Source of the DNA: Planctomycetota bacterium
Lineage (GTDB): Bacteria > Planctomycetota > J058
NCBI GenBank assembly: GCA_020425635.1
Contig: JAGQRJ010000710.1
Location: 1-51,663 of the forward strand
Reading direction: 5' to 3'
DNA: 51,663 bases
A model generated the notes under the pieces. The model saw only the letters and a program-made list of their open reading frames with translations. It was not told the origin of the DNA and made no database searches. Position 1 is the stretch's first letter. Each line of letters opens with the position of its first letter. Shown piece after piece: positions 28,804 through 48,508 of this stretch. The position numbers were made by a program, and so were the translations under genes.

Positions 28804-28805
28804 GG

Positions 28806-33434: not shown

Positions 33435-33854
33435 ATGAAGACCCGCATGAATCTCGTTGCGATCCTGATTGCCCTGGCTACTGTCTCGTTCTTGGGCGGC
33501 TGCCCGCAGAGCGGTGCGAGCAAGGACTCCGCCCCTGCGGCGTCTGGCGCCGCGGCGAGCAAACCCTCCGCCGCGAGCTTGGCCGCCGCGGAGAAGTTCT
33601 CGACCCTCTGCGCCAGCTGCCACGGGGCCAGCGGCCAGGGTGACGGCCCCGCGGCGGCAGCCCTCGACCCCAAACCTCGGAACTACAGCGACGCGGCCTG
33701 GCAGGCCTCGGTCAGCGACGAAGACCTCAGCAAGATCATCCTCGAAGGTGGCGCTGCGGTCGGGAAGAGCCCGATCATGCCGCCCAGCGCCGACCTCAAG
33801 GACAAGCCCGAGGTCGTCAAAGAACTCGTGAAGCTGATTCGTTCCTTCAAGTAG
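33435..33854 (+). CDS. Monoheme class I cytochrome c lipoprotein (139 aa)
   Basis: Lipobox: SFLGG/C. An Ala/Ser-rich linker follows. Heme site CASCH, with Met ligand region SPIMPP. Confidence 0.85.
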   Translation: MKTRMNLVAILIALATVSFLGGCPQSGASKDSAPAASGAAASKPSAASLAAAEKFSTLCASCHGASGQGDGPAAAALDPKPRNYSDAAWQASVSDEDLSKIILEGGAAVGKSPIMPPSADLKDKPEVVKELVKLIRSFK

Positions 33855-33963
33855 GCCAGCGCTCACCGCGCCGGGACGCCAAGCGCGCTCTCGGGTGTTC
33901 GCGGCTACCGCTCGAGCACCTCGCTCCTCCCCGGGTGTTCAAGCATGTGAAGGGTTTAGCAGC

Positions 33964-35512: not shown

Positions 35513-35833
35513 TCAGGTCTGGGTGTCGTTGATCCAGGTCCAGGCGGCGACGGCGCCCGGGAGCCCGATCGTCGTCGCCGCCAGGGCCACGACCTGATCC
35601 ATGTCTGCCTGAGTCACGCCGGCTGCGGGCGCTTTGCGCGCCGCGGAGTGAACCGCGCCTTCGCGCAGGGCGCCAATGCTGATCCCCAGCTTGACGAGCC
35701 GCTGCTCGCGAGTCGAGAGCGGACCGTTCGCGCTCCCCTTGCCGAGCAGGCTCCAGGCCTCGCCGATCTCGGGGAAGCGCTCCACGAAGCGGCGGAAGGT
35801 CTCAGGCGGCGGCGGCGTGTCGGACATGGTCAA
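35513..35833 (-). CDS. Carboxymuconolactone decarboxylase (CMD/AhpD-like) family protein without Cys residues (106 aa)
   Basis: Helical CMD-like sequence (LSTREQRLVKLGISIGALREGAVHSAARKA). It starts 45 nt after the napF-like stop, so it is probably the last gene of the nap operon. There is no CxxC motif. Confidence 0.6.
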   Translation of the reverse strand: MTMSDTPPPPETFRRFVERFPEIGEAWSLLGKGSANGPLSTREQRLVKLGISIGALREGAVHSAARKAPAAGVTQADMDQVVALAATTIGLPGAVAAWTWINDTQT

Positions 35834-35878
35834 GCTCCTTGAGTCAGGTGGATCGTCCAGGATACGGCCCGGCGAGGT

Positions 35879-36496
35879 CTATGCAGCAGGTGGCGCGCCG
35901 AGGGGCTCGATACGAAGCGCATCGGCCGGGCAGATCACGGCGCACTTCCCGCAGCCCGTGCAGGCCTCCGTGTCGATCAGCGGCAGCTCGCCTCGACCGG
36001 GGACGCGGATCGCCCGGGGGCGGGGCGGGCAAGGCCCTCGGCAGTAGTTGCAGTCTTGCTGGTGGGCGCTGCTGTAGCACAGCGCCGGGTCGACGACGGC
36101 TACGCCGATCTTGACCGCGCCCTCCGGCGGCTTAAGCGCCGAGGTCTCGCAGGCCGCGACGCAGGGCAGGTCCTCGCACATCAGGCAGGCCGTGATCGAG
36201 GGCAAGATCACGGGGGTCCCTGCGATTTTCGCGCCCAACTCGGGCCCCGCCTTGCGGATCACGTGGTGGGGGCAGGCAAGAATGCAGTCGTTGCACGACG
36301 TGCAGGCGGCGAGGAACTCGGCTTCGCTTCCCGCGCCGGGCGGGCGCACGAAGGCAGGGCGCGGCGGCGCCGCGGGCGGCGTGCTCAAGGGCGACATCGC
36401 GCGCTGGGCTTGCGTGTAGATCTCCGAGACCACCTCGAGCGTGGAGCGGAGGCTGACCCGAAAGAAGTCGGCGCGTGTGTAGTTGGGCTCCGTCAC
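35879..36496 (-). CDS. napF: NapF-like poly-[4Fe-4S] ferredoxin (205 aa)
   Basis: GTG 36496 overlaps the upstream stop (GTGA). It has a vestigial Tat-like N-terminus (TRADFFRV) and VRPPGAGSEAEFLAACTSCNDCILACP. Three further Cys clusters are present: CLMCEDLPCVAACE, CNYCRGPCP and CTGCGKCAVICP. Confidence 0.7.
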   Translation of the reverse strand: MTEPNYTRADFFRVSLRSTLEVVSEIYTQAQRAMSPLSTPPAAPPRPAFVRPPGAGSEAEFLAACTSCNDCILACPHHVIRKAGPELGAKIAGTPVILPSITACLMCEDLPCVAACETSALKPPEGAVKIGVAVVDPALCYSSAHQQDCNYCRGPCPPRPRAIRVPGRGELPLIDTEACTGCGKCAVICPADALRIEPLGAPPAA

Positions 36497-38427
36497 ATCG
36501 CCGAGACCCGCATTTCCATGGGTTGGTTCAACAGCCACAAACTGACCGTACTCGAGGCGAGCATGGCGAGCAGCATGGGGATCTGGGCCAGGATTCCGCG
36601 CAGGCGGTCGGGGACCAACCCGCGGGTCGTGCGCTCGGAGATCCAGAGCCCGTAGAGGTGGCCGATCACCACGAAGAACACCTGGAGGATCCACAGGCCT
36701 TCGAGGGTGATCATGGGAGGCACGGCCCACCCCGCCGTGCCAAACAGGTCCCAGCCCCAGCCGCAGGGGTCGGACGCCAAGGCCAGGAGCTTGGGCCCCT
36801 CCATGAGGAAGTGCTCTGCGTTGTGGGCCAGGTGATAGAACAGCGCGATCGGCAGCAGCGCATAGGCGTAGCGCAAGAACACGGTCCGGGTGCGGGCGAC
36901 GCGGCCGATCATGGCGGTCGCCTTCGACAACAGCGCGAACAGCAAGACCGGCAACACGAGCAGCCCAACCATCAGCAGGCTGAACGAGGCCTGCGCCGGG
37001 ATCGCCAGGCTGGACTGCACCGCGTCGCTCCACTCCCCCCAGCGCGGGGTCATGGTCAACCCGTGAAACCCCGTCATGGAGAGCAACACGATCGCGAGGA
37101 ACGCCTCGTCCGAACGCCCCTTGCCGCCTTGGGCCAGGTCCGACGCCCAGGGCCGCAGGCGCACGGTGGTGTTGCCGTGCGGGCAGGTCTTGAGGCACTC
37201 GCCGCACGAGATGCAGTAGGTGTTGCGCTGCATCGTGCGCGGGAACTCGAAGGTCGGGCATCCGTCCCCTTCGGCGTTGCCCTTGTAGCAGTCCATGGTC
37301 CTGCAGGTCGAGCACACGGCGTCGTCTTTGGAGCGAACCTCGATCGGGGAGAACAAGGCGTAGAGCCCGGAGACACGACCCACCAGGCAGCCATAGCGAC
37401 AGAACGCCTTGCGGTCGAAAACCAGCACGCTGGTCACGGCCATCCCGAGCATGCCCAGCGCGAGGTAGGCCGTGACCCGAGGGACCATCGTCACGCCGAG
37501 CCCGAGCTCGACCCAGGTCAGGAGGACGAACAGCCCGACGGCCGGCCAGATGTTGCGGAGCTTCCGCGGCCAGCGCAGCCCGAGGCCCATGCCGGACTGC
37601 CTCGGACCCCAGGGCTTCAGGCGCTCGATCCAGGTCGCGATCCCGTCCCAGGGACACACGAAGCACCACAGCTTGCCGAAGTAGAGGATCAGGAAGATCA
37701 GCCCCGCCCACCAGATCGTCCAGGTGAGCAAGGGAGCGACGTTCATGGAAGGGTTCTGATTGCCAAACAACCCCGCGTAGATGATCAAGCAGAAGAACGC
37801 CGCGCACACCGACTGGAAGCAGAAACGCAGCGGCTTCCAGGTGACCAGCCGGCGCACCCAGGCCGCGCCGAGCAGGTCCTGGCGGGCGTCGAGCGCGGGC
37901 TGGGTGAGCGGGGCGCCGCGCCGCTCTCGCAGCCAAGACAGGAGCTCGAACAGCCCAAACGACACGAGCAGCAGGATCAGGACTCCGTATTGGTACATCC
38001 AGGCCGGGATCCCGCGCATCAGGTGCTTGTCCGCGCCTGCGGTGAGGCTCGGGGGGTGGGCCTGAATCCAACGCGCAGGCTCGGCGACCACGGCGTCGCG
38101 GCAATAGGTGGAGCAGAAGAAATAGGTGCGCTCCGCGACCGTCACCTGGTAAGCCGTCGCGCGGCGCACCGTCATGTTGCACACGACGTCGCGGGCGACC
38201 GCCGCCTCCTGCTGATCCTCGTGGGTCTGGACCTCCAGCCCTGCAGCCGCCGCGACCTCGGTCAGGTCGACGCTGTCGCGGGCCGTGCGCTGATCCCACA
38301 CCACCAGCCCGCTGACGAGCACGAACACGAGCCAGGGAAAGGAGAGCCCCAGGCAGCCCCAGGCACCGCGGCGACTTCCTCGCGTGCTCGCGGGGGGGGC
38401 CTGAACGACGGGAAGCGGTCGGCTCAC
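36493..38427 (-). CDS. Integral-membrane polyferredoxin of the NapH/FixG/NosR-C-terminal type with an N-terminal YHS (TRASH-like) metal-binding domain (644 aa)
   Basis: GTG 38427 overlaps the upstream stop (GTGA). TM1 is followed by the YHS signature DVVCNMTV...ERTYFFCSTYCRDAV. NapH-like membrane Cys motifs: LWCFVCPWDG and FCRYGCLVG. Ferredoxin clusters: CSTCRTMDC...GCP and CISCGECLKTCP. Several additional C-terminal TM helices follow. Confidence 0.75.
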   Translation of the reverse strand: MSRPLPVVQAPPASTRGSRRGAWGCLGLSFPWLVFVLVSGLVVWDQRTARDSVDLTEVAAAAGLEVQTHEDQQEAAVARDVVCNMTVRRATAYQVTVAERTYFFCSTYCRDAVVAEPARWIQAHPPSLTAGADKHLMRGIPAWMYQYGVLILLLVSFGLFELLSWLRERRGAPLTQPALDARQDLLGAAWVRRLVTWKPLRFCFQSVCAAFFCLIIYAGLFGNQNPSMNVAPLLTWTIWWAGLIFLILYFGKLWCFVCPWDGIATWIERLKPWGPRQSGMGLGLRWPRKLRNIWPAVGLFVLLTWVELGLGVTMVPRVTAYLALGMLGMAVTSVLVFDRKAFCRYGCLVGRVSGLYALFSPIEVRSKDDAVCSTCRTMDCYKGNAEGDGCPTFEFPRTMQRNTYCISCGECLKTCPHGNTTVRLRPWASDLAQGGKGRSDEAFLAIVLLSMTGFHGLTMTPRWGEWSDAVQSSLAIPAQASFSLLMVGLLVLPVLLFALLSKATAMIGRVARTRTVFLRYAYALLPIALFYHLAHNAEHFLMEGPKLLALASDPCGWGWDLFGTAGWAVPPMITLEGLWILQVFFVVIGHLYGLWISERTTRGLVPDRLRGILAQIPMLLAMLASSTVSLWLLNQPMEMRVSAM

Positions 38428-39011
38428 GACGCGCGCCGCGCAGCGCGCCGGGCGCGCTTGATCTTCAGCGAGCGGACGGTGAGCAGGAGCAGCACGAACC
38501 CGCCCACGCAGCCTCCGAGGATCAGTGCCGGAGAACCGGGCTCCCCGACCACCATCGGGAAGGTCAGCGTCGAAGTAATTTCGCCGTCGGGAAACGAGAG
38601 CGTGATCTCGTAGTTCCCAACCGCGTCGTAGGTGGGATAGAACTTGTAGACGTTCTCGCTGAGGGTCACCTCCCTCGGCCCGAAGACCTCGTGGCGCGAA
38701 CCCAGCAGCGAGAGCCGCTCGACTTCGAGGGTCAGCGGTTGGCGATACAGGCTCCGGCTCTGCGCGTCGACCACGTAGACGTGGAGCTCGGTCGGCACAC
38801 CGGGCACGGGCTTGCCCGGGTAGGCGGTGAGTTGGAACTCCCACTGGCCGACGTTCTCGATCAGCTTGAGCACGGGCGCCTGCGGGTAGTTCTCGTCGTA
38901 GGAGTAGTGAGGGATCCCCATGATGTGGTGCGCCCAAGCGGGCGTGCTCGGCACGACCAGGAGCAGGAGCGCTCCGAGGAGGAGGCTCAACGCGACGCGC
39001 GTCCTGCTCAT
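38424..39011 (-). CDS. Exported, C-terminally membrane-anchored protein maturing to an N-terminal His-His (HHIMGIPHY...); putative metal (Cu)-binding Ig-like protein (195 aa)
   Basis: ATG 39011 overlaps the napH stop (ATGA). Signal peptide MSRTRVALSLLLGALLLLVVPSTPAWA/HH. The ~140-aa beta-rich body is followed by the TM anchor ALILGGCVGGFVLLLLTV and the basic tail RSLKIKRARRAARRAS. The family is not recognised. Confidence 0.6.
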   Translation of the reverse strand: MSRTRVALSLLLGALLLLVVPSTPAWAHHIMGIPHYSYDENYPQAPVLKLIENVGQWEFQLTAYPGKPVPGVPTELHVYVVDAQSRSLYRQPLTLEVERLSLLGSRHEVFGPREVTLSENVYKFYPTYDAVGNYEITLSFPDGEITSTLTFPMVVGEPGSPALILGGCVGGFVLLLLTVRSLKIKRARRAARRAS

Positions 39012-40156
39012 GAGGCGCCTCCCTCGGGCAGCTCCGCCGGCTCGGCGCCCGCCAGCGAGACCCCCTCCGGAGTCAGCGGGGCGACCGTCGCGACCGTCGC
39101 GCTGGTCGCAACGGGCAGCGGACGGCCCGTCATGGGCTTGGAGGTCACCGCAATGCGATAGCCCAGGGCCCGCACGGGGCAAGCGTCAATGCACTCTCCG
39201 CAGTTGTCGCACTCGCTGACCGTGCGGTCGGTCATGGGCAGCTCGCCCTGCGGGCAGACCTTGTCGCAGATCGTGCAATCGATGCACACGTCGCGCTTGC
39301 GCCGCACGCGCACGAGGCGCCAGCGCCCGAGCAGCGAATACAGCGCCCCGCCGGGACACACGGTGCGGCACCAGAAGCGCGGGGCGACTGCCACCTCGAG
39401 CCCCATGAGCAGGAGCAAGAACGCCGTGCCGCCGGTCACGCCGACCAGGGCCAACCCAGGCATGCCGTCTTCCGCGCGGTCGAACAGGGCGAACACGAAG
39501 GAGTGGGCCTCGCGGCCGAGGATCGCGGGTGGATAGAAGGTGTTCAGCACGGCGTCGCCCGTGAGCAGCGCCAGGGCGAGGCCGACGGCGAGCAGGAGGT
39601 ACTTCGTCCCGCGGCTGAACCTGAGATCGAGCGGCTTGATCTCGAGCAGCTTGGGCAGCAGCGAGCGCACCCAGGCCGAGAGGTCGAACAGCAGACCCAT
39701 GGGGCAGATCCAGCCGCAGAACACGCGCCCGAGGAGCACGGTCAGCGCCAACGGGAGCAGCAGGCCGGAGATCAGCACCCAGGGCGCAGCCCACGACGCG
39801 CAGGCGCTCTCCGTGGCGGCCAGCGGGTCGGTCAGGGAGACCCCGCCCACCTCCGCCGACCAGGGCGACCCGTGGAAGCCCCGGGAGCGCTCGAGGATCG
39901 CCCTCCGCGGGCGACGCGTCGGGACGCCGCTCTCGCCGTCTGGGATCCCAACCCGCAGGGCAGCGTCGGTGACCTGGAGCACGAGGCCCTGGGTCGATCC
40001 TTCCCAGCGCTCGATCTGCTTGTCGAGCTGGCGTGCGGCGAGGTAGTGGTTGTAGCGCGCGATCACCGGAAAGGCGAACAACGCCACGACCACCAGCAGC
40101 TGCACGCTGCGCCGGAAGGGCCACACCGGGAACCGACGCTTCGGCGCGAGCTTCAC
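39008..40156 (-). CDS. napH: NapH-type membrane quinol dehydrogenase subunit (about 382 aa)
   Basis: Membrane motifs CGWICPMG and CRTVCPGG. Two ferredoxin clusters: CIDCTICDKVCP and CDNCGECIDACP. The start is either GTG 40156 (GTGA overlap, preceded by CGGAGG) or GTG 40162. Confidence 0.8.
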   Translation of the reverse strand: MKLAPKRRFPVWPFRRSVQLLVVVALFAFPVIARYNHYLAARQLDKQIERWEGSTQGLVLQVTDAALRVGIPDGESGVPTRRPRRAILERSRGFHGSPWSAEVGGVSLTDPLAATESACASWAAPWVLISGLLLPLALTVLLGRVFCGWICPMGLLFDLSAWVRSLLPKLLEIKPLDLRFSRGTKYLLLAVGLALALLTGDAVLNTFYPPAILGREAHSFVFALFDRAEDGMPGLALVGVTGGTAFLLLLMGLEVAVAPRFWCRTVCPGGALYSLLGRWRLVRVRRKRDVCIDCTICDKVCPQGELPMTDRTVSECDNCGECIDACPVRALGYRIAVTSKPMTGRPLPVATSATVATVAPLTPEGVSLAGAEPAELPEGGAS

Positions 40157-40734
40157 AGCCACCTCCGCTCGGAGAACACGCGGATCGCCTTGTCGCGATC
40201 GACGATGCACACCTCTTCACAGAGACCACAGCCCACGCAGAACTCGTCGTGAACGGTGGGGGAGAGGTGCATGCCTTGGGTGATCGCCTTGCCTCGCAGC
40301 GGGCAGGCGGTGTAGCAGGCGCCGCAGATTCCGCTCCCGTTGGCGCTCACGCAGAGGTCGTTGTCGACCACCGCCGTACCCATGCGCGCTTCGCTCTTCG
40401 CGGTCAGCGCGACGATCGCGCCCGTGGGGCAGGCCTCGCCGCAGCGCATGCAGAGGTTGCAGGCGTGCTCCTCGGCCACGATCACGGGCGTGTCCGCGAG
40501 GTGGGACGAGCCGGGGAGCAACCGGATCGCCCGCGTGTCGCACACCTGCGCGCAGCGCTGGCAGCGAATGCAGCGGGTGAGGAACTCGGGCTCGGGCAGT
40601 GAGCCTGGGGGGCGCAGCAGCCCGCGCCGCTTGAGCTCGGGGGAGATCAGCGCCGGGAGGTGGAATCGCGAGCGCGCGTAGAACGCGAGCGCGCCCCCGA
40701 CGCCGAGCACGCTGCCCACCAGCCACTTGAGCAT
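40153..40734 (-). CDS. napG: NapG-like ferredoxin, N-terminally membrane-anchored paralogue (193 aa)
   Basis: N-terminal hydrophobic segment MLKWLVGSVLGVGGALAFYA. Then LRPPGSLPEPEFLTRCIRCQRCAQVCD and three more Cys clusters (CNLCMRCGEACP, CGACYTACP, CVGCGLCEEVC). Confidence 0.75.
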   Translation of the reverse strand: MLKWLVGSVLGVGGALAFYARSRFHLPALISPELKRRGLLRPPGSLPEPEFLTRCIRCQRCAQVCDTRAIRLLPGSSHLADTPVIVAEEHACNLCMRCGEACPTGAIVALTAKSEARMGTAVVDNDLCVSANGSGICGACYTACPLRGKAITQGMHLSPTVHDEFCVGCGLCEEVCIVDRDKAIRVFSERRWL

Positions 40735-40745
40735 TGCGCGGCGCT

Positions 40746-41375
40746 TCAGGTTGCCCTCGTCATGTCGGGCACGATCGTGATCGCTTGCGGGTAGCGAATG
40801 CAGGCGCGCTCGCAGAGTCCGCAGCCAATGCAGACCTCCGGGTCGACCTCCGGGCGCTCGAAGAGGCCCGCCTTGAGCGCCCGCCGTTCGAAGGGACAGG
40901 CCTGCACGCACACGCCGCAGGAGCTCCCCTGGAACGAGTAGCAGAGGTTTGGATCCACCTCTGCGCGACCCATGGAGACCTTCTCCTGGATCGCCTCGGG
41001 GGTCTTCTTGATCACCTGCAGGGCGCCCGTCGGGCACGCCGCCGTGCAGCGCAGCTCGTCGCCTTCGCTCCCCACGCACAAGCTGCAGGCTTGCCGACGC
41101 GGAAAGATCGCCGGCGTGCGCACCTGCCCCGCGCCCGGGGTCAACGAAAACGGACTCCCCGTCTCCTCGGTGAACGGGAGAATGCACTGGTTGGGGCAGG
41201 CATCTCCGCAGCGGGCGCAGCGGATGCAGCGCGCGAGGAACTCGTCCTCGGGGAGGGCGCCGGGCGGACGCATCACGTCCGCCCGGGCCCGGGTGCCTCC
41301 GTGGAAGCCGAACCCAGCCGCCAGCGACGCGCCGAGGAGCGTCCCTGCCTTCATGAACTCCTTGCGCGTGAGCAC
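40746..41375 (-). CDS. napG: NapG-like periplasmic ferredoxin with Tat-like leader (about 209 aa)
   Basis: VLTRKEFMKAGTLLGASLAAG is an RK-variant twin-Arg-like leader. Then MRPPGALPEDEFLARCIRCARCGDACP, CSLC...CTAACP, CGVCVQACP and CIGCGLCERAC. The start is uncertain: GTG 41375 or ATG 41354. Confidence 0.7.
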   Translation of the reverse strand: MLTRKEFMKAGTLLGASLAAGFGFHGGTRARADVMRPPGALPEDEFLARCIRCARCGDACPNQCILPFTEETGSPFSLTPGAGQVRTPAIFPRRQACSLCVGSEGDELRCTAACPTGALQVIKKTPEAIQEKVSMGRAEVDPNLCYSFQGSSCGVCVQACPFERRALKAGLFERPEVDPEVCIGCGLCERACIRYPQAITIVPDMTRAT

Positions 41376-41395
41376 GTTCCGCTCGCTCCTGCGGC

Positions 41396-44152
41396 TCAGA
41401 TCTTCTCGATCCGCGCGGCGAACTTCTTGAAGTCCGCCTGACCCGAGACGGGATCCCAAGCTCGGTGGCTGACGCCGTTGACCAACCAGCGGTTCTCCTT
41501 GGGGTCGGCGCTGTCGGCCACCGAGAGGTTCCAGGGGCTGAACATGTAGCCGGGGAGGACCTCGTTGCGCGCGGGGCGGATCATGGAGTCGGTGCCTACC
41601 GAGACCCGGGCCTCGTAGGACCCGCGACGCGTGACCAGGCGCACGTTCTCGCCGTCTTCGAGCCCGAAGCGCTTGGCGTCTTCCTCGTTGACCTCGACGT
41701 ATTGCTCGGGCACGAGCTTGCGAGTCGTCCCGCCGCGCACGGTCTTCGCGGTGTGGAAGTGCTCGTAGACGATCCCCAGGCCGAGGAAGAAGGGGTACTT
41801 GTCTTCCTTGGTGAAGTCCGCGAGGGTCTTGTCGGCGTCGTAGTAGTCGTCGAGGTCAGGCAGCTCGGGGACCAGCGCGTTGTCGCGCGCCTCGAACAGG
41901 GTCTCCATTTGGTCGATGAAGAACGGCTCCTTCTCGGCCGCGGCCAGGATCTCAGCGGGTGAGGCGCCCTTCTTGACGAGGTCGCCGGTCTTGCGCCCGA
42001 CCTCGGACATGCGACCGCAGATCTCCTTGATCTTGCTGTAGTCCTGCTCGCAGAGCTTCATCTTGGCCTTCCCGCCGGCTTGCGGGAAGTTCTCGTAGGG
42101 CCGGTTGGCCCAGTGCTCTTCTTGTCCGAAGTAACGGCGCTTGGTGCCGCCGGCCTTGGCGCTCTCGTAGCTCGGGGCGGGCCACTGAATGCCGCGGAGC
42201 TGGCGCAGCTGATCGTAGAGCCCGATCCCGTCCTTCTTCTCGACCTCGAGCATGCCGGTCAGGTCGGCGTCGGAGCCCTTGGACGCGATGACGATGTCGC
42301 GGAAGACGTCCTCTGGGTCGTAGAAGCTCTGGCCGTACTCGTTCTTGATCGTCTTCTTGTAGGGGACGATCTTCTCGGCGTCGAGGCCGAGCTTCTTGGC
42401 GAGCGAGATGCACTTGTCGATCGCGAGGTCCATGTCGGGGCGCGCCTCCTTGAGCACCTCGCCCTTCTCGTTGCGGCCCACGCTGACCCCGTCGTTGACG
42501 TAGAGCCGACGCTCGCTCTGAATGTAGACGCCGCCCGTCCACTCGCCCCAGGTGATCGCCGGGAAGATCACGTCGCCATACAGGTTGTTGGGCGCGTGCC
42601 GGTAGATCTCCTGCACGACGACGAACATCTTGCTCAAGCCAGGCCGGATCAAGGTCTTGACGTCGGGCATGTGCACGTGGGTCGTGTACATGAAGAACAT
42701 GGCGTGCAGATCGTCCTTCAGCGCGCGCTCGAGCATGCCGATCGCCATCGGGTTCTGCATCCCGGCGGTCACGTCCAGCTGGCCCTCCGGGAGCCGCCAG
42801 CAGGTGTTGATGTGCCTGCGCCACTCGACGTCGTCGATCCCCTTGTTGAAGGGCAGACGCCCGGTGAGGCCGCCCATCAGGCGCTCGCTCATGGCGTTGG
42901 GCTGGCCAGTCTGGGAGTGGGTGCCGCAGCCGGGGCGGCCGAGGTTGCCGGTCAGCAGATGCAGGTTGATCACGGAGATCGTGTTGTGCTGACCGTGCAG
43001 GTGCTGGTTGAAGCCGATGCCCCAGTAGCTGACCACGCCGCCCTTGCCCCGCTTGCGGCCCTTGATCGAGGCCTCGGCCCAGAGCTTGCCGATCGTCTCG
43101 ATGTCTTCGACGGTGATCCGTCCACGGTCGAGGAGGTGCAGGCGCTCGACGACTTGCTTCGGCGAGTAGCGCTCTTTGATTCCCTTGACGTACTCCTTCC
43201 AGCCGGCGCAGTGCTTGTCGAGCCACGCGTCGGGCATGATCGCCTCGGGGTACTTCGTGAGCACCACGTGCGCGATCGCGTTGAGGTAGGAGATGTCGCC
43301 GTTGATCGTGGGGAAGTGGTAGCTGTTGCGCGGGTTTATGTCCTCCAGGCCCGTCACGGTTCCGGTGCGGCGCGGGTCGCTGACCAGGGTCGGGATGTCG
43401 TTCTTCTTCTTGTGGTCGGCGACGCGCCAGAACAGCACCGGGTGGCCTTCGCGGGCGTTGTGGCCCCAGAAGGTGATCATGTCGGCCATCTCGGCGTCTT
43501 CGTAGCAGGTCGGAGGTGTGTCCGACCCCAAGGTGGCGAAGTAGCCGGTCACGGCTGAGGTCATGCACATGCGCGCGTTGGCCTCGATCGAGTTCGACTG
43601 CAGGATCCCCTTCATGAGCAGGTTCTCGATGTACTGGGCCTCCATGGTCAGCTGGCCAGATCCAGAGAGCCCGACCGAGTTGCCGCCCTTGGCCTTGACG
43701 ATCGCCGCGATCTTCTCGGCGACGAGCTCTTCGGCCTCCTCGTAGGGCATCTCGTGGAACACCTCCTTGTCGAAGCGGCCCTTGGTGGCCGAGACGTGTC
43801 CGGTCAGCGGGTCGGACATGTCCTTGCGCACGAGGACCCGCTCGATCCGATCCTTGTAGATCGGCTCGTTGGCGTTGAGCCCCTTGATGCACTGCAGGCC
43901 CTTGTTCGTCGGGTGCTCCTTGTCGGGGATCATGCCCACGATCCGGTCACCCTCGACCTGGATCAGCGTCCCGCAGCCGACGCCGCAGTAGGGGCAGGCA
44001 GACTGCAACTGACGGCTGCCTTTGGCCTTGGCGTCTTCGGCGGAGACCATCTCGGCCGAGAACATGGGCAGCGCAGTGAGGCCGGCAGCGGTCGCACCGG
44101 AGGCCTTGAGGAACGTCCGGCGAGAAGGGTCAAAGGACTCGTTGTGACTCAT
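41396..44152 (-). CDS. napA: Periplasmic nitrate reductase catalytic subunit NapA (Mo-bisMGD, 918 aa)
   Basis: Tat leader: SRRTFLKASGATAAG. [4Fe-4S] motif: CPYCGVGCG. Mo-ligand Cys context: NARMCMTSAVTGYFATLG. NapA-like blocks: YWGIGFNQHLHG...INLHLLTGNLGRPGCGTHSQTGQPNA, and the C-terminal DPVSGQADFKKFAARIEKI. Confidence 0.85.
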   Translation of the reverse strand: MSHNESFDPSRRTFLKASGATAAGLTALPMFSAEMVSAEDAKAKGSRQLQSACPYCGVGCGTLIQVEGDRIVGMIPDKEHPTNKGLQCIKGLNANEPIYKDRIERVLVRKDMSDPLTGHVSATKGRFDKEVFHEMPYEEAEELVAEKIAAIVKAKGGNSVGLSGSGQLTMEAQYIENLLMKGILQSNSIEANARMCMTSAVTGYFATLGSDTPPTCYEDAEMADMITFWGHNAREGHPVLFWRVADHKKKNDIPTLVSDPRRTGTVTGLEDINPRNSYHFPTINGDISYLNAIAHVVLTKYPEAIMPDAWLDKHCAGWKEYVKGIKERYSPKQVVERLHLLDRGRITVEDIETIGKLWAEASIKGRKRGKGGVVSYWGIGFNQHLHGQHNTISVINLHLLTGNLGRPGCGTHSQTGQPNAMSERLMGGLTGRLPFNKGIDDVEWRRHINTCWRLPEGQLDVTAGMQNPMAIGMLERALKDDLHAMFFMYTTHVHMPDVKTLIRPGLSKMFVVVQEIYRHAPNNLYGDVIFPAITWGEWTGGVYIQSERRLYVNDGVSVGRNEKGEVLKEARPDMDLAIDKCISLAKKLGLDAEKIVPYKKTIKNEYGQSFYDPEDVFRDIVIASKGSDADLTGMLEVEKKDGIGLYDQLRQLRGIQWPAPSYESAKAGGTKRRYFGQEEHWANRPYENFPQAGGKAKMKLCEQDYSKIKEICGRMSEVGRKTGDLVKKGASPAEILAAAEKEPFFIDQMETLFEARDNALVPELPDLDDYYDADKTLADFTKEDKYPFFLGLGIVYEHFHTAKTVRGGTTRKLVPEQYVEVNEEDAKRFGLEDGENVRLVTRRGSYEARVSVGTDSMIRPARNEVLPGYMFSPWNLSVADSADPKENRWLVNGVSHRAWDPVSGQADFKKFAARIEKI

Positions 44153-44164
44153 GAATAGTTGTTC

Positions 44165-46135
44165 CTAGCGTTTCCAAGTACGAATGTGGGCAACGATCTT
44201 CTGGATCTCGTCCGCGGTCAGGTCGGCGACGCCGCCCACGCCCCGACCGAACGCGCGCATGGGGGTCCCGGCCCGACCGAGGGCGATCGTCGCCAGCAAC
44301 ATGCTGTCGCTGGCTGCGGTGAGGAATTCCGGGTTGTTGATCGAGGGCGCATACCCCTGGATCTGTTGTCCTGGCTGGGGGCCTCGGCCGTCGCTGCCGT
44401 GGCAGCCAGCGCACATGACCCGGAACAGGTGCCCGCCTTCGGCCAGATCCGCGGGGGAGGGCTCTGGGGCGGGGCGGCGCTCGAAGGGCTTGTTCTCGAA
44501 GGCGCGCACGTAGGTGACCACGGCCTCGACCTCTTCCGGCGTGAGGCTCACGTTGCCGCCGCGGTCGAAGGAGAGCATGGCGGTGCCCTCGCGACCGAGG
44601 ATCACGGTGCCGATCAGGAAGCCGTCCGTGGCCACCTTGAGGAAGTCGGGGTTTCCGATCGCCGGCCCGCTCGCGCCCTCTCCGTTCCGTCCGTGGCACT
44701 TGGCGCAGGCGGCCTTCTCCTCGTAGACCTCCCGACCCAGGTCCATTTCGACGCGCGAGCGCGGCCGCTTGAGCGGCTCGAGCGTGGGCCTGGCTTGCAG
44801 CTCGCGGAGGTAGGCCACCAGGTCGTCGATCTGCGCGGGCTCGAGGCTGACCAACTCGCCGCCCGCGGAGCCCTTGAGGAAGCCCTTCATGGCGCTCCCC
44901 GACTTGCCGTAGGCGATCGTCTGGAAGAGGAACGCGTCGTCGGCGCACTCGAGGAAGACACGGTTGCCGATCTGTCCACCGACCCCGCCCCGGCCCTCGG
45001 CTCCGTGGCACTGCGTGCAGTACGAGGCGTAGAGCTGTGCGCCCGCCTTGGGGTCGCCCTGGGGGGGCCGGGGCTCAGGGACGACGGACTCGACCTCCTG
45101 CCAGGTGCGAATGTAGGTGATCAAGTCGGCGACGTCGGGGGCGCTGAGGAAGTGCCATTGCGGCATGGCGGTCCCGGGCCGTCCCCTGACGATCGAGTGG
45201 TAGAGGAACTCGTCCGACGCCAAGGAGAGGAACGACTGGCTGTTGAGGCGCGAACCGATCCCGCCCTCGCCCTGCTTTCCGTGACAGGCCACGCAGCGCG
45301 ACCCGAAGATCGTCTTGCCGACCTGGGCGCTGCGCTTGGTGGCGTGTTTGCGCAGGTCCGCGACGTCCGCGAAGGTATGGCCTGGCTCCCGCCAGCTGCG
45401 CAGGTAGGCGAGCAGGTCCGAGACCTCTCCCGCGTCGAAGCGAGTGCCCGCAGGCATGGCGGTGTGCCCCCGACCGAACGCGATCGTGTCGCGGAGGAAC
45501 TCGTCGGAGGCGACCGCCTGAAACGACCGTGAGCGCAGCGAGTTGCCGATCCCGCCTTGGCCGCTGGTCCCGTGGCAGGCGGCGCAGTTGCCGTGGAACA
45601 GCGCTTTGCCGCGGTCGACGTCGCCCAAGGCGACGTCGACCTTGCTGCGGTCTGGGCCCTCTGCTTGCCACGAGCGAATGTAGGCCACGAGGCTCTTGAT
45701 CGCGTTTGGCGTGAGGATCTGCTCCCAGCCGACCATGGCCGTCGAGGAGCGGCCGTGCTTGATGATCGCCTCGTAGTAGGCGTCGTCCACGACCGCCAAG
45801 ACCCGCTCGGAGTTGAGCGTGGGCATCCCCGGCAGCGGAGTCTTGCCGTCGGCGCCGTGGCAGCTGGCGCAGTAGGTCTTGAAGTGGACCGCGCCCGCTT
45901 CGATCGAGATCTCGTCCGACCCAGACTCCGAGGTCGGAGCAGGGGCGTCGGTCCCTGGACCCGCGGTCCGGGCTGGAGTGCCGACGACCGCCACGGCGAT
46001 CGAGATCCCGAGCACGGCGACGAACGCTCCTCCCAGGATCATTCCGTCGCGACGCAGCGCAGACAGACCTGCCGCCTCGGACGGGGTTGCTGCTGTGGAG
46101 GGAGTGGCGTGGGGGTGGTCGAGACCCTCGCTCAT
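44165..46135 (-). CDS. Membrane-anchored protein made of six tandem monoheme class I cytochrome c domains (656 aa)
   Basis: Signal-anchor: MILGGAFVAVLGISIAVAVVG. Six CxxCH sites are present (CASCH, CAACH, CVACH, CTQCH, CAKCH, CAGCH). Each is followed about 45-50 aa later by a G..GT.M Met-ligand region and an Y(I/L)R(S/T/E)W-type helix. ATG 46135 is preceded by AAGGAG. Confidence 0.9.
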   Translation of the reverse strand: MSEGLDHPHATPSTAATPSEAAGLSALRRDGMILGGAFVAVLGISIAVAVVGTPARTAGPGTDAPAPTSESGSDEISIEAGAVHFKTYCASCHGADGKTPLPGMPTLNSERVLAVVDDAYYEAIIKHGRSSTAMVGWEQILTPNAIKSLVAYIRSWQAEGPDRSKVDVALGDVDRGKALFHGNCAACHGTSGQGGIGNSLRSRSFQAVASDEFLRDTIAFGRGHTAMPAGTRFDAGEVSDLLAYLRSWREPGHTFADVADLRKHATKRSAQVGKTIFGSRCVACHGKQGEGGIGSRLNSQSFLSLASDEFLYHSIVRGRPGTAMPQWHFLSAPDVADLITYIRTWQEVESVVPEPRPPQGDPKAGAQLYASYCTQCHGAEGRGGVGGQIGNRVFLECADDAFLFQTIAYGKSGSAMKGFLKGSAGGELVSLEPAQIDDLVAYLRELQARPTLEPLKRPRSRVEMDLGREVYEEKAACAKCHGRNGEGASGPAIGNPDFLKVATDGFLIGTVILGREGTAMLSFDRGGNVSLTPEEVEAVVTYVRAFENKPFERRPAPEPSPADLAEGGHLFRVMCAGCHGSDGRGPQPGQQIQGYAPSINNPEFLTAASDSMLLATIALGRAGTPMRAFGRGVGGVADLTADEIQKIVAHIRTWKR

Positions 46136-46170: not shown

Positions 46171-46186
46171 AGCACGGACGGCTCCA
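46171..46186 (-). promoter_or_regulatory. Candidate sigma54 (-24/-12) promoter for the nap operon: TGGAGC-cgtcc-GTGCT
   Basis: The minus strand reads TGGAGCCGTCCGTGCT. GG and GC sit at exactly the consensus spacing of TGGCAC-N5-TTGCW. It lies 36-51 nt upstream of the cytochrome gene ATG, and a sigma54-dependent activator gene is 0.9 kb upstream. The match outside GG/GC is weak. Confidence 0.3.
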
Positions 46187-46366
46187 CTCGGAGGAGAGCA
46201 TAACCCGTTGACTCAGTGGACAAAATAGTCTACTGGTCACGTTGATGTGAACGCTGGGCGTGAGCCTTGGGATTCGGCTGGGCGGTGTCGCAGGTGTGTG
46301 ACTCCAGGCCCTGGCCCCCGGGGGGCGGGGGTCAGAGCCTGCCGACGAGTCGGTGCCGTGGCCAGC

Positions 46367-47051: not shown

Positions 47052-48508
<1,457 letters not shown>

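What the first reader, a model, noticed from the sequence alone, without database searches (positions are those of the whole stretch)
35513..46135. Non-canonical nine-gene nap operon: napA without recognisable napB/napC/napD, but with a hexa-domain cytochrome c, two napG genes, napH, a His-N-terminal exported protein, a YHS-polyferredoxin, a napF-like gene and a CMD protein
Seen: the transcription order on the minus strand is as follows.
- cytochrome c x6 (46135-44165)
- napA (44152-41396)
- napG with a Tat-like leader (41375-40746)
- napG' with a TM anchor (40734-40153)
- napH (40156-39008)
- 195-aa exported protein (39011-38424)
- YHS membrane polyferredoxin (38427-36493)
- napF-like gene (36496-35879)
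- CMD protein (35833-35513)

Four junctions are 4-nt overlaps: GTGA at 40153-40156 (if napH starts at GTG 40156), ATGA at 39008-39011, GTGA at 38424-38427 and GTGA at 36493-36496.

Established: characterised nap loci contain the diheme NapB and/or the tetraheme NapC or NapM, together with the NapD chaperone. None of these signatures is present anywhere in the window. That means no diheme ~150-aa protein, no NapC/NirT tetraheme and no ~90-aa NapD.

Inference: this is a distinct Nap electron-transfer architecture. NapGH (duplicated G) and a membrane-tethered six-heme wire replace NapB/C, and a metal-handling pair is embedded in the operon.
Basis: partly seen in the sequence, partly recalled or inferred. 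Interest (0 to 1): 0.8.

Follow-up and report, generated by a model that had tools for sequence, protein, structure and literature searches.

The report
Uncharacterised cytochrome-c-linked Nap-like reductase operon

Summary
No NapB, NapC or NapD is detectable in the window, which is a complete 51.6-kb contig of a Planctomycetes MAG.

The "napA" is not a canonical NapA. It scores 307 bits against a NapA cut-off of 904, is 31% identical to E. coli NapA and falls outside the NapA clade. It belongs to an unnamed family of about 900-925 aa that is 53-91% identical across more than ten phyla and cultured Photobacterium. It keeps the Tat signal, the Fe-S motif and the Nap/Nas-type active-site motifs.

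The core operon is conserved across these lineages:
- class-I cytochrome c (2, 6, 8 or 10 haems)
- the Mo enzyme
- two Tat-type NapG-like ferredoxins
- a NapH-like protein
- a family-less Ig-like protein
- a second NapH-like polyferredoxin
- a NapF-like protein

Quinol-oxidising modules vary: a genuine NapC, Rieske/cytochrome b, or alternative complex III. CMD occurs only in close relatives.

In the window the operon abuts nirK and a nor-like cluster. The best reading is a cytochrome-c-dependent respiratory nitrate reductase of a new Nap-like type (confidence about 0.6). The substrate is untested and the "metal-handling" role is only weakly supported.

The parts
46171..46186 (-). Candidate sigma-54 promoter, TGGAGCCGTCCGTGCT. 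The GG and GC elements have the consensus spacing. It ends 36 nt upstream of the first ATG.
   Evidence: It is conserved in the close relative L090 (TGGAGTGGTCCGTGCT). Near-consensus sites lie upstream of the operon in L085 and L088. A sigma-54 activator gene is adjacent. This is inference only; the site differs from the consensus at four positions.
46235..46252 (-). Conserved inverted repeat GTTCAC-N6-GTGACC, a possible regulator site. It overlaps the only sigma-70-like match in the region (46251-46222).
   Evidence: Alignment with L090 shows a perfect GTTCAC-N6-GTGAAC there. The promoter scan found one match against 0.7 expected, so it is not significant by itself.
44165..46135 (-). Membrane-tethered hexahaem cytochrome c. 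It has six tandem class-I (CcoP/QcrC-like) monohaem domains of about 95 aa, each with CXXCH and a conserved distal Met. It is the probable direct electron donor to the Mo enzyme.
   Evidence: Six PF13442 stretches. Six CXXCH motifs. The domains are 28-42% identical to each other. PDB sequence matches are to CcoP and QcrC. One TM helix at residues 33-51. Orthologues upstream of the Mo enzyme carry 2, 6, 8 or 10 haems.
41396..44152 (-). Tat-exported Mo-bisPGD catalytic subunit of 918 aa. It belongs to an unnamed family sister to NapA/Nas and is a probable nitrate reductase.
   Evidence: Pfam Molybdop_Fe4S4, Molybdopterin, Molydop_binding and TAT_signal. NapA models score 307 and 285 bits against cut-offs of 904 and 930. 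The best PDB match is NapA at 235 bits. More than 120 homologues are 68-91% identical. The NARMCMTSA and TGQPNAMSERLMGG motifs are invariant. The family forms a separate clade in the NJ tree.
40746..41375 (-). NapG-like periplasmic poly-[4Fe-4S] ferredoxin (G1). Its Tat motif has an RK variant (TRKEFMK).
   Evidence: NapG and MauM/NapG models score 98 and 88 bits, below their cut-offs. Homologues carry RRxF(L/V) motifs. The RK form is conserved in L090.
40153..40749 (-). Second NapG-like ferredoxin (G2). It most likely starts at CTG 40749, in a CTGA overlap with the G1 stop, which gives the Tat signal MKRRAMLKW.... The annotated ATG is at 40734.
   Evidence: The L090 orthologue starts with ATG in an ATGA overlap at the same place and reads MKRRELLKW.
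39008..40156 (-). NapH-like integral membrane protein with Fer4_5 (CxxCP) motifs and two cytoplasmic [4Fe-4S] sites. It is a putative quinol dehydrogenase or membrane partner of the G proteins.
   Evidence: NapH/MauN models score 130 and 125 bits against cut-offs of 213 and 234. Hydropathy analysis gives five peaks, two of which overlap. It is fused in frame to the next gene's product in L084 and L086.
38424..39011 (-). 195-aa protein of no known family (X195). It has a signal peptide, an Ig-like beta-sandwich and a C-terminal TM anchor. The mature N-terminus HHI(M/L)GxPHY is invariant. It is a probable periplasmic subunit of the NapH-like protein.
   Evidence: No Pfam or NCBIfam match. Its 27 homologues are all 'hypothetical'. 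H28, H29, H35, Y36 and Y38 are invariant. The AF2 model has pLDDT 84. Foldseek gives weak matches to the Cu proteins FetP/P19, CrdA and PmoD.
36493..38427 (-). 644-aa membrane polyferredoxin (H'). After TM1 it has a YHS/TRASH-like Cys motif. It then has a NapH-like core with two CxxC(P) motifs and two [4Fe-4S] motifs. A C-terminal extension of about 200 aa carries five invariant His residues in or near TM helices.
   Evidence: YHS scores 18.5 bits, below its cut-off. NapH scores about 31 bits. Conservation map. There are 811 homologues, named only 'YHS domain-containing' or 'polyferredoxin'. The AF2 model has pTM 0.86 and no PDB fold match with TM-score above 0.15. The YHS part is absent in proteobacterial orthologues.
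35879..36496 (-). NapF-like cytoplasmic poly-[4Fe-4S] protein. Homologues have a vestigial RR motif but no hydrophobic signal region.
   Evidence: NapG, MauM and NapF models score 82, 75 and 57.5 bits, all below their cut-offs. N-terminal comparison.
35513..35833 (-). CMD (AhpD-like) family protein of 106 aa with no Cys. It is a lineage-specific appendage and not part of the conserved core. Its probable start is ATG 35827.
   Evidence: PF02627 scores 37.8 bits. It has no counterpart in the 15 family loci from genome contigs or in the gene lists of L081 and L083-L088. It is present after the NapF-like gene in L089 and L090.
47052..49726 (-). Sigma-54-dependent response regulator (47052-48467) and histidine kinase (48509-49726), upstream and co-directional. 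They are the likely regulators of the operon.
   Evidence: Pfam. Similar pairs lie next to the operon in L085 and L086.
32874..35505 (.). Flanking genes that recur next to the family: an Rrf2 regulator (32874-33311, minus), a monohaem cytochrome c (33426-33854, plus) and an Alginate_exp-family outer-membrane channel (33895-35505, plus, convergent with the operon).
   Evidence: Rrf2 lies next to the operon in L001, L002, L013, L081 and L087. The channel gene lies directly upstream of the Mo enzyme in L084, and a homologue is in L015.
24633..32835 (.). Adjacent denitrification genes. These are NorD-like VWA, NorQ-like, a haem-copper oxidase family protein (NO-reductase candidate) and a dihaem cytochrome c, all on the minus strand. 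On the plus strand are NirK fused to cytochrome c, a NirV-like FGE-domain protein and SCO1/SenC.
   Evidence: Pfam. NirK passes the TIGR02376 cut-off, 349.9 against 296.3.

Best explanation
The operon encodes a respiratory, periplasmic molybdenum oxyanion reductase of a previously unnamed type. It is most probably a nitrate reductase that works like Nap but is not a NapA-family member.

**Shown**
- The 918-aa subunit is Tat-targeted.
- It keeps the N-terminal [4Fe-4S] motif, the Cys-Met molybdenum-ligand motif and the TGQPNAM..R..GG motif of Nap/Nas nitrate reductases.
- In most loci it is encoded directly behind a class-I (His/Met) multihaem cytochrome c.
- It is always followed by NapG-, NapH- and NapF-like iron-sulfur proteins.
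- The whole set is conserved across phyla.

**Inferred**
- Electrons leave the quinol pool through a lineage-dependent module: NapC in Gammaproteobacteria and Alphaproteobacteria, Rieske/cytochrome b or alternative complex III in other phyla, and the NapGH-like pair everywhere.
- They pass through the cytochrome c wire, which is membrane-tethered and hexahaem here, and/or the two Tat-exported NapG-like ferredoxins. They then reach the [4Fe-4S] cluster and the Mo centre, where nitrate is reduced to nitrite.
- In this genome nitrite then goes to the neighbouring NirK and the NO to the neighbouring Nor-like oxidase.
- Routing through Rieske/cytochrome b or ACIII and class-I cytochromes would make the pathway electrogenic, unlike NapC-dependent Nap.
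- The NapF-like protein probably acts in the cytoplasm, in maturation or electron input.
- X195 is a periplasmic subunit of the NapH-like protein. Together they mimic the CcoG architecture. With the second polyferredoxin they form an accessory redox or metal-handling module whose role is unknown.
- Expression is probably sigma-54-dependent, through the adjacent two-component system.
For: **Active site and targeting.** The motifs C53-x2-C56-x3-C60...C88-I-K, N-A-R-M-C196-M-T-S-A and T-G-Q-P-N-A-M-S-E-R424 are invariant in 25 sequences. They align with the NapA Cys ligand and catalytic Arg regions. Fdh-type U/C-H and GQNNVQG motifs are absent. The Tat motif is SRRTFLK.

**Closest relatives.** The closest solved structures are all NapA.

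**Conserved operon.** The gene set recurs in about 25 loci.

**Direction of electron flow.**
- A genuine NapC, 48-56% identical to E. coli NapC, lies in five loci.
- Rieske/cytochrome b lies directly upstream of the cytochrome-Mo gene pair in L081, L085 and L087.
- ACIII lies directly downstream in L084 and L086.
- All of these are quinol-oxidising modules, which points to a reductase.

**N-oxide context.**
- nirK, a nirV-like gene, senC and a nor-like cluster lie within 10 kb in the window.
- The nosZ cluster is adjacent in L084.
- Rrf2 regulators and hemerythrins recur.
- MobA-like and TatA genes lie directly upstream in L086, and MoaA is adjacent in L089 and in the P0002 contig.

**Periplasmic ferredoxins.** G1 and G2 carry Tat motifs.

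**H-X195 coupling.** In-frame fusions occur in L084 and L086.
Against: - No activity, expression or genetic data exist for any member.
- The catalytic subunit scores as well against the Fdh-alpha model (271 bits) as against NapA (307 bits), and far below every curated cut-off. Homology alone does not fix the substrate.
- Most family loci are not next to N-oxide genes.
- No NapD-type or other dedicated Tat chaperone is seen.
- The window contig contains no quinol:cytochrome c module other than the NapH-like proteins, so the electron entry point in this organism is unknown.
- Three conserved proteins (X195, the H' polyferredoxin and the second NapG-like protein) have no role in any known Nap system. 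This could mean a different chemistry.
- The tree is a simple NJ tree without bootstrap.
Confidence: 0.6

Rival explanations
1. The architecture and electron-flow direction are the same, but the physiological substrate is another high-potential oxyanion or oxide, such as chlorate/perchlorate, selenate, iodate or a metal(loid) oxyanion. The conserved His-rich X195 and the YHS/TRASH polyferredoxin would then take part in handling that substrate or its product.
For: - The family lies outside the NapA clade and below all curated cut-offs.
- Three conserved partners are unknown in Nap systems.
- X195 resembles periplasmic Cu/metal-binding beta-sandwich proteins.
- Most loci have no N-oxide genes within 10 kb.
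- C. jejuni NapA itself reduces chlorate and perchlorate (PMC12769810).
Against: - The active-site motifs are those of Nap/Nas nitrate reductases and are invariant.
- The only respiratory enzymes that recur next to the operon belong to denitrification: NirK, Nor-like and NosZ.
- No chlorite dismutase or selenium- or iodine-related gene was seen in any flank.
Confidence: 0.2
2. The enzyme runs as a dehydrogenase, for example a nitrite or arsenite oxidase. It would pass electrons from the substrate to the high-potential class-I cytochrome c chain and on to an oxidase, or in reverse through the Rieske/cytochrome b-NAD(P) module.
For: - The partner cytochromes are class-I His/Met domains of the CcoP/QcrC type, typical of high-potential chains.
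- In three loci a GltD-like NAD(P)-binding protein is co-transcribed with Rieske/cytochrome b. From my own knowledge, this resembles the Rieske/cytochrome b complexes proposed for anammox bacteria.
- AioA arose within the same Nas-related radiation (PMC7331816).
Against: - NapC-type quinol dehydrogenases and NapGH-like proteins accompany reductases.
- The hosts are heterotrophic Photobacterium and Colwellia and mostly anaerobic or facultative uncultured phyla, not nitrifiers.
- The Cys ligand is retained, unlike in AioA.
Confidence: 0.08
3. It is an ordinary Nap system whose napB, napC and napD lie elsewhere in the genome, and the extra genes are incidental neighbours.
For: The window is a whole 51.6-kb contig of a fragmented MAG, so the rest of the genome is unseen.
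Against: - The catalytic subunit fails both NapA equivalog models by about 600 bits and is 31% identical to E. coli NapA. Canonical NapAs are 41-72% identical to E. coli NapA.
- The 'extra' genes are syntenic in about 25 loci from many phyla, with overlapping stop and start codons.
- None of these loci carries napB or napD.
Confidence: 0.04
4. It is a periplasmic, cytochrome-c-linked formate dehydrogenase.
For: The Fdh-alpha model scores 271 bits, close to the NapA score. For the family representative P0292 the two scores are equal.
Against: - There is no Sec/Cys-His pair and no Fdh-type GQNNVQG motif. The motifs present are Nap/Nas-type.
- No FdhD/FdhE-like genes were seen.
- The partners are NapG/H/F/C-like.
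Confidence: 0.03

Closest known systems
Epsilonproteobacterial Nap (napAGHBFLD; Wolinella succinogenes, Campylobacter jejuni)
   Same: - NapC-independent.
- Has a Tat-exported catalytic subunit of about 920 aa, followed by NapG, NapH and NapF.
- In C. jejuni, electrons reach Nap via the menaquinol:cytochrome c reductase Qcr (PMC6195509). This parallels the Rieske/cytochrome b and ACIII modules found next to this family.
   Different: - CjNapA is a true NapA. This protein matches it at only 210 bits and falls outside the NapA clade.
- There is no NapB, NapL or NapD here.
- The donor is a class-I multihaem cytochrome, not the NapB dihaem fold.
- There is a second NapG-like protein, a second NapH-like polyferredoxin and X195.
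Desulfovibrio desulfuricans / Caldithrix abyssi type Nap (napCMADGH; napM-A-G...H plus Rieske/cytochrome b)
   Same: - Lacks NapB.
- A multihaem cytochrome gene (NapM) lies directly upstream of napA.
- NapGH is present.
- In Caldithrix a Rieske/cytochrome b pair lies inside the nap locus (PMC5317091).
   Different: - NapM is a tetrahaem c3-type cytochrome, not tandem class-I domains.
- NapD is present in Desulfovibrio.
- The catalytic subunits are small (about 750 aa) NapA-clade proteins.
- There are no X195 or H' homologues.
Canonical NapAB-NapC (E. coli napFDAGHBC)
   Same: - NapF-, NapG- and NapH-like genes, at 29-39% identity.
- Proteobacterial members of the family also carry a real NapC.
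- Same cofactor set and Tat export.
   Different: - 31% identity to EcNapA.
- No NapB or NapD.
- Different cytochrome partner.
- Extra conserved genes.
- The 2026 review lists only four nap operon types, none of which is this one (PMC13223375).
CcoG / FixG cupric reductase
   Same: H plus X195 are fused in L084 and L086. Together they reproduce the CcoG layout: NapH-like TM core with CxxCP motifs, two cytoplasmic [4Fe-4S] sites, then a TM helix and a periplasmic Ig-like domain.
   Different: The sequence match to the CcoG model is 27.7 bits against a cut-off of 316.7. X195 has no FixG_C match. There is no link to cbb3 oxidase genes.
Clade II nos cluster electron module (NosG, NosH, NosC1/C2, NosB)
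   Same: It uses NapG/NapH-like proteins together with c-type cytochromes to feed a periplasmic N-oxide reductase. One family locus lies directly beside a clade-II-type nosZ cluster.
   Different: The terminal enzyme is a copper enzyme, not a molybdoenzyme. No orthology was tested.

Membership tests
NapA (periplasmic nitrate reductase catalytic subunit) | Scores above the curated NapA equivalog models (NF010055, TIGR01706) | tested here: not met
   307.1 bits against a cut-off of 904, and 285.4 against 930.55. The family representative P0292 scores 286 and 262.
NapA (periplasmic nitrate reductase catalytic subunit) | Falls inside the monophyletic NapA clade | tested here: not met
   In the NJ tree the family, together with P0292, P0293 and P0297, forms a clade apart from EcNapA and NapA-like representatives. 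Identity to these is 30-34%, against 41-72% between them and E. coli NapA. There is no bootstrap, so the result is indicative only.
NapA (periplasmic nitrate reductase catalytic subunit) | Twin-arginine signal, N-terminal CX2CX3C...C [4Fe-4S] motif and Mo-bisPGD domains | tested here: met
   SRRTFLK; C53, C56, C60 and C88; PF04879, PF00384 and PF01568.
NapA (periplasmic nitrate reductase catalytic subunit) | Cys molybdenum ligand followed by Met, and the conserved Arg in the TGQP(S/N)A...R motif | tested here: met
   NARMC196MTSA aligns with NARHCMASA of EcNapA. TGQPNAMSER424 aligns with TGQPSACGTAR. Both are invariant in the family.
NapA (periplasmic nitrate reductase catalytic subunit) | Associated NapD chaperone and NapB (or NapM) partner | tested here: not met
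   There is no NapB or NapD match in the window or in 19 family loci. The rest of the genome is unseen.
NapA (periplasmic nitrate reductase catalytic subunit) | Nitrate reductase activity | not testable with these tools
   This needs an enzyme assay or genetics.
NapG/NapH quinol dehydrogenase | NapG: Tat-exported poly-[4Fe-4S] ferredoxin. NapH: polytopic membrane protein with two CxxCP motifs and two cytoplasmic [4Fe-4S] sites. | tested here: inconclusive
   The features are present. All scores are below cut-off: G1 97.9/269, G2 107.5/269 and H 124.7/234. Identity to the E. coli proteins is 29-39%.
NapF | Cytoplasmic poly-[4Fe-4S] protein with a vestigial RR motif and no export signal | tested here: inconclusive
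   Homologues show RRxFF without a hydrophobic region. The TIGR00402 score is 57.5 against a cut-off of 102.2, and the NapG model scores higher, at 82.
NapC/NirT tetrahaem quinol dehydrogenase | Four CXXCH motifs and PF03264 | tested here: not met
   Absent from the window. Present beside the operon in L004, L006, L007, L008 and L014.
Formate dehydrogenase alpha (Fdh) | Sec/Cys-His ligand pair and a score above the TIGR01591 cut-off | tested here: not met
   271 bits against 666. The motif is C-M, not U/C-H.
CcoG/FixG cupric reductase | Match to TIGR02745 / FixG_C. Architecture of TM-CxxCP core, two [4Fe-4S] sites and a periplasmic Ig-like domain. | tested here: not met
   The architecture is mimicked by H plus X195, which are fused in L084 and L086. 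The sequence score is 27.7 against 316.7, and there is no FixG_C match.
YHS/TRASH metal-binding domain | PF04945 above the gathering score | tested here: inconclusive
   The window protein scores 18.5 against 30.3. Most homologues carry a precomputed PF04945 assignment, and C83, C105 and C109 are nearly invariant.
Class-I cytochrome c (CcoP-like) | CXXCH plus a distal Met in a domain of about 90 aa (PF13442/PF00034) | tested here: met
   Six stretches, 203 and 168 bits. The aligned G-T-A/P-M motif is present in all six.

The most novel reading that the evidence does not exclude
The family is not a nitrate reductase. It would be the terminal enzyme of an undescribed periplasmic respiration, or oxidation, of another high-potential substrate. 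The invariant His-rich Ig-like protein and the TRASH/His-studded polyferredoxin would be mechanistically essential, for example as a metal(loid)-handling or transmembrane electron module. This would define a new respiratory pathway present in more than ten phyla and in culturable Photobacterium. A related variant is that, in lineages where it is co-transcribed with GltD-like, Rieske and cytochrome b genes, it acts as the high-potential arm of a quinol-bifurcating complex that makes NAD(P)H.
Probability: 0.2. Interest if true: 0.9.

Novelty: new variant of a known kind. Interest (0 to 1): 0.62.

Why it matters
**Missed nitrate-reducing capacity.** If this family reduces nitrate, it is a fifth and widespread type of dissimilatory nitrate-reducing system. 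Curated NapA models do not recognise it, and records call it only 'molybdopterin-dependent oxidoreductase' or 'anaerobic selenocysteine-containing dehydrogenase'. Metagenome surveys of groundwater, sediment and marine samples would then be undercounting nitrate-reducing capacity. The affected groups include Planctomycetota, Elusimicrobiota, Hydrogenedentes, Latescibacterota, Verrucomicrobiota, Binatia and Gemmatimonadota.

**Bioenergetics.** The wiring through class-I cytochromes and Rieske/cytochrome b or ACIII would make periplasmic nitrate reduction energy-conserving. This has been debated since the C. jejuni Qcr result.

**Unknown proteins.** The system contains two conserved proteins with no characterised relatives.

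**Testability.** Photobacterium profundum SS9, which as far as I know is genetically tractable, carries the operon, so the questions are directly testable.

Tried and rejected
1. **Sigma-54 consensus scan.** A scan with up to two mismatches found nothing upstream of the operon. The candidate promoter emerged only from conservation with L090.
2. **Structure-based identification of H'.** The AF2 model is confident, but Foldseek found no PDB counterpart, with TM-scores of at most 0.15. A PDB sequence search gave only a ferredoxin fragment at E = 0.1.
3. **Plasmids.** No family member was found; all matches were below 30% identity.
4. **Literature.** Nine full-text searches were run, including accession numbers, NapGH combined with molybdopterin, Elusimicrobia, Photobacterium profundum and DMSO-reductase phylogenies. 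None found a description of this family or operon. One search was wasted on word-start matches to 'naphtho...'.
5. **Apparent stop-interrupted ORF fragments.** Fragments at 8-15.4 kb on the minus strand had GC3 of about 1.0. They are antisense frames of ordinary plus-strand genes and are not a feature.
6. **Concatenated small-ORF scan for NapD.** I considered running it and dropped it. The leftover ORFs are Arg/Ala/Pro-rich off-frame translations, and the operon has no unassigned coding space.
7. **Rrf2 as NsrR.** The Rrf2 regulator is not an NsrR equivalog: it scores 36.9 against a cut-off of 182. NO-sensing is therefore not claimed.

Full report
**1. The observation**

The nine minus-strand ORFs are present at the stated coordinates.
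- 46135-44165: a 656-aa protein with six PF13442/PF00034 cytochrome c domains.
- 44152-41396: a 918-aa molybdopterin oxidoreductase with a Tat signal.
- Two NapG-like ferredoxins.
- A NapH-like membrane protein.
- A 195-aa protein with no family match.
- A 644-aa protein with a weak YHS match and a NapH-like core.
- A NapF/G-like ferredoxin.
- A CMD-family protein.

The four 4-nt overlaps (GTGA 40153-40156, ATGA 39008-39011, GTGA 38424-38427, GTGA 36493-36496) are exact.

tblastn with E. coli NapB, NapC and NapD finds nothing in the window. The haem-binding motif CXXCH occurs only in the hexahaem protein, NirK, a dihaem protein next to a haem-copper oxidase, and a 142-aa cytochrome. All other sizeable genes of the contig received unrelated Pfam assignments.

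The window is a complete 51,663-bp contig of an NCBI MAG labelled 'Planctomycetes bacterium'. Genes outside it cannot be checked.

**2. Corrections to the gene models**

In homologous loci both NapG-like proteins carry twin-arginine motifs. The NapF-like protein carries an RR motif without a hydrophobic region, as NapF does.

In the window, the motif KRRAMLKW lies immediately upstream of the annotated ATG 40734 of the second NapG-like gene. The only in-frame start there is CTG 40749, which overlaps the stop of the first NapG-like gene as CTGA.

A close relative, whose Mo enzyme is 91% identical, has ATG at exactly this place in an ATGA overlap, and its protein starts MKRRELLKW. The 'TM anchor' is therefore a truncated Tat signal, and this junction is a fifth overlap.

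The first NapG-like protein has an RK variant (TRKEFMK) that the relative shares as SRKEFL.

CMD more likely starts at ATG 35827, behind an AAGGAG sequence.

**3. The catalytic subunit is not a NapA**

It scores 307 and 285 bits on the two curated NapA models, whose cut-offs are 904 and 930. It scores nearly as well (271 bits) on the formate dehydrogenase alpha model.

Its best solved relatives are all NapA, but at only 210-235 bits. Identity to E. coli NapA is 31%.

It belongs to a large family:
- At least 120 cluster representatives are 68-91% identical. They come from Planctomycetota, Elusimicrobia, Hydrogenedentes, Latescibacteria, Verrucomicrobia, Binatia and 'Deltaproteobacteria'. Sources call them only 'molybdopterin-dependent oxidoreductase', 'hypothetical protein' or 'anaerobic selenocysteine-containing dehydrogenase'.
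- More distant members are 53-60% identical in tblastn segments. They occur in Gallionellaceae, Hyphomicrobiaceae, Rhodospirillaceae, Motiliproteus, Sericytochromatia, Calditrichaceae, other Gammaproteobacteria MAGs and cultured Photobacterium frigidiphilum.
- The same 90% cluster holds proteins of P. profundum SS9 and 3TCK, P. indicum and Candidatus Colwellia aromaticivorans.

Mean column identity in a 25-sequence alignment spanning phyla is 80%.

In an exhaustive search of 1.8 billion representatives, the scores fall in steps. The family representative scores 924 bits. A few intermediates follow: P0293 (49%, 705 bits), P0297 (40%) and P0300 (37%). Below them is a continuum at about 250 bits. 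The NapA-like representatives in that continuum score 650-765 bits on the NapA model, while the family scores about 290.

A neighbour-joining tree puts the family, with P0292, P0293 and P0297, in a clade separate from E. coli NapA and the NapA-like representatives. The tree has no bootstrap.

**4. The active site is nitrate-reductase-like**

These motifs are invariant in the family:
- the Fe-S motif C53-x2-C56-x3-C60...C88-I-K90
- N-A-R-M-C196-M-T-S-A
- T-G-Q-P-N-A-M-S-E-R424-L-M-G-G

They align with NARHCMASA and TGQPSACGTAREVG of E. coli NapA and with the same motifs of NapA-like and intermediate relatives. From my own knowledge, the second motif also resembles the GQPNAMGGRE motif of assimilatory nitrate reductases. 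The Sec/Cys-His pair of formate dehydrogenases is absent.

**5. The operon is conserved**

tblastn and ORF maps show the same set of genes around the Mo enzyme in nearly every locus with enough flank.

| Type | Gene order | Where found |
|---|---|---|
| PVC type | cytochrome c - Mo enzyme - G1 - G2 - H - X195 - H' (YHS) - F | window, L002, L013, L081, L088, L090. The P0002 contig is similar, but its gene calls show a single G and a longer H in place of separate G2 and X195. |
| Proteobacterial type | [NapC] - dihaem cytochrome c - Mo enzyme - G1 - H - G2 - X195 - H' - F - [NapC] | L003-L009 and L014; in part L010 and L012 |

- The cytochrome directly upstream of the Mo enzyme carries 2, 6, 8 or 10 haem motifs depending on lineage.
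- The window's six domains are 28-42% identical to each other. Each keeps a distal Met, and they resemble CcoP and QcrC.
- CMD is found only in the window and its two closest relatives.
- No locus contains NapB or NapD.

**6. Where the electrons come from**

- Five proteobacterial loci encode a bona fide NapC/NirT cytochrome, 48-56% identical to E. coli NapC (PF03264, 243 bits), at one end of the operon.
- In L081, L085 and L087 the cytochrome-Mo pair is preceded, on the same strand and almost without gaps, by a GltD-like Fe-S/FAD protein, a Rieske protein and a cytochrome b.
- In L084 and L086 the operon is followed by a hexahaem cytochrome and ActB/ActC/ActD-like genes of alternative complex III.

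All of these oxidise quinol and reduce cytochrome c. This argues that the Mo enzyme is a terminal reductase of a high-potential acceptor.

Coupling of Nap to a quinol:cytochrome c reductase has a precedent in C. jejuni (PMC6195509). A Rieske/cytochrome b pair inside a nap locus has been described in Caldithrix (PMC5317091).

The window itself has none of these modules. It has only the two NapH-like proteins.

**7. Context in the window and elsewhere**

Within 10 kb of the operon lie:
- NirK fused to cytochrome c, which passes the TIGR02376 cut-off
- a NirV-like FGE-domain protein and SCO1/SenC
- an Rrf2 regulator
- a monohaem cytochrome c
- an Alginate_exp-family outer-membrane channel
- a haem-copper-oxidase family protein with a dihaem cytochrome c and NorQ/NorD-like genes

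Elsewhere:
- L084 places the operon directly after a nosZ-nosDFY cluster, a hemerythrin and the same kind of outer-membrane channel.
- Rrf2 regulators flank the operon in L001, L002, L013, L081 and L087.
- Hemerythrins and radical-SAM genes recur.
- L086 has MobA-like and TatA genes directly upstream.
- MoaA is adjacent in two relatives.
- Most loci have no N-oxide gene within 10 kb.

**8. Regulation**

A sigma-54 activator and a histidine kinase lie upstream, as in L085 and L086.

Thirty-six nucleotides before the first ATG lies TGGAGCCGTCCGTGCT, with GG and GC at the consensus spacing. It is conserved in L090. L085 and L088 have near-consensus sites (TGGCATGACGCTTGCT and TGGCATGGTTAATGCA) upstream of their operons.

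A conserved inverted repeat, GTTCAC-N6-GTGA(A/C)C, lies about 50 nt further upstream. These sites are inferences.

**9. The unexplained conserved proteins**

*X195.* It has no Pfam or NCBIfam family, and only 'hypothetical' homologues. After a signal peptide ending A-x-A comes the invariant sequence HHI(M/L)G(I/V)PHY(A/S)Y. A beta-sandwich follows, then a C-terminal TM helix with an RxKIKRARR tail. The AF2 model (pLDDT 84) is an Ig-like sandwich. Its best Foldseek matches include the periplasmic copper proteins FetP/P19/FtrA, CrdA and PmoD, but with modest scores, and generic Ig-like domains rank alongside them.

In L084 and L086 the NapH-like gene and X195 form one open reading frame. This points to a physical complex. 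It reproduces the layout of CcoG: a NapH-like core, cytoplasmic Fe-S clusters and a periplasmic Ig-like domain. There is no significant sequence match to CcoG.

*H'.* It has about 11 TM helices. A YHS/TRASH Cys motif follows TM1 and is absent in Proteobacteria. There are two CxxC(P) motifs, two [4Fe-4S] motifs predicted on the cytoplasmic side, and a C-terminal four-to-five-helix extension. That extension carries the invariant residues H455, H532, H535, H539 and H590. No solved structure resembles it.

Its function is open. It could be a second quinol-linked or NapF-linked electron input, a transmembrane haem or metal site, or a metal reductase.

**10. Comparison with the literature**

A 2026 review recognises four nap operon types: napEDABC, napDAGHB, napCMADGH and napAGHBFLD (PMC13223375). 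A 2025 phylogeny of 251 NapA homologues describes long NapAs only in Campylobacterota, Thermus/Deinococcus and Hydrogenothermaceae (PMC12769810). A DMSO-reductase-family phylogeny covers NapA, Nas, Aio and Fdh without this lineage (PMC7331816).

Nine full-text searches found no description of the family. The library lacks most subscription journals, so this is absence of evidence only.

**11. Verdict**

The architecture is real, conserved and undescribed as far as I could find.

The enzyme is a Nap-like cousin rather than a NapA. NapC is not universally absent. The CMD gene is peripheral, and the metal-handling idea is weakly founded.

| Reading | Confidence |
|---|---|
| Cytochrome-c-dependent periplasmic nitrate reductase | about 0.6 |
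| Different oxyanion substrate | about 0.2 |
| Oxidase (dehydrogenase) direction | about 0.08 |

Noticed in passing
window 24633-32835: A compact denitrification island lies next to the operon. NirK is fused to a C-terminal cytochrome c. It is followed by a NirV-like FGE-domain gene and SCO1/SenC. A haem-copper-oxidase family protein matches no NCBIfam NorB model but sits with a dihaem cytochrome c and NorQ/NorD-like genes, so it may be an atypical NO reductase.
   Followed up: partly
L084 13385-14929; L086 13991-15580: The NapH-like protein and the X195 protein are encoded as a single open reading frame. The A-x-A / HH junction is retained inside the fusion.
   Followed up: yes
L081 3264-10004; L085 3390-9997; L087 3383-10004: A GltD-like Fe-S/FAD NAD(P)-type protein, a Rieske protein, a cytochrome b and a decahaem cytochrome c are co-linear with the Mo enzyme. 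From my own knowledge, this layout resembles the Rieske/cytochrome b complexes proposed to bifurcate quinol electrons in anammox bacteria.
   Followed up: partly
L083 10001-12724: One family member (P0104, 70% identical) stands alone, without any of the partner genes. It is next to a radical-SAM gene and near a second, unrelated molybdopterin enzyme with a cytochrome b.
   Followed up: no
L081 21970-22467: A free-standing 165-aa ORF is 61% identical to the last 117 residues of the H' polyferredoxin (the His-bearing C-terminal helices). It lies about 4 kb downstream of the operon.
   Followed up: no
window 2729-12683: A plus-strand cluster encodes a Rieske-cytochrome P450 fusion (586 aa), a carboxylic-acid-reductase-like protein (AMP-binding plus NAD_binding_4, 1111 aa), a second P450, a sulfotransferase, an SDR and a flavin monooxygenase. 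It looks like a lipid or secondary-metabolite modification cluster.
   Followed up: no
window 12743-15727: A 994-aa protein combines a Ser/Thr kinase domain with a C-terminal FGE-sulfatase (formylglycine-generating-enzyme-like) domain.
   Followed up: no
window 33895-35505; L084 8702-9985; L015 about 5062-5874: An Alginate_exp-family outer-membrane beta-barrel recurs next to the operon. In L084 it lies directly upstream of the Mo enzyme on the same strand. It may be an outer-membrane channel for the anionic substrate.
   Followed up: partly
window 41354-41375; L090 5722-5745: The first NapG-like protein has an Arg-Lys (RK) pair instead of Arg-Arg in its Tat motif in this lineage. All more distant homologues have RR.
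   Followed up: partly
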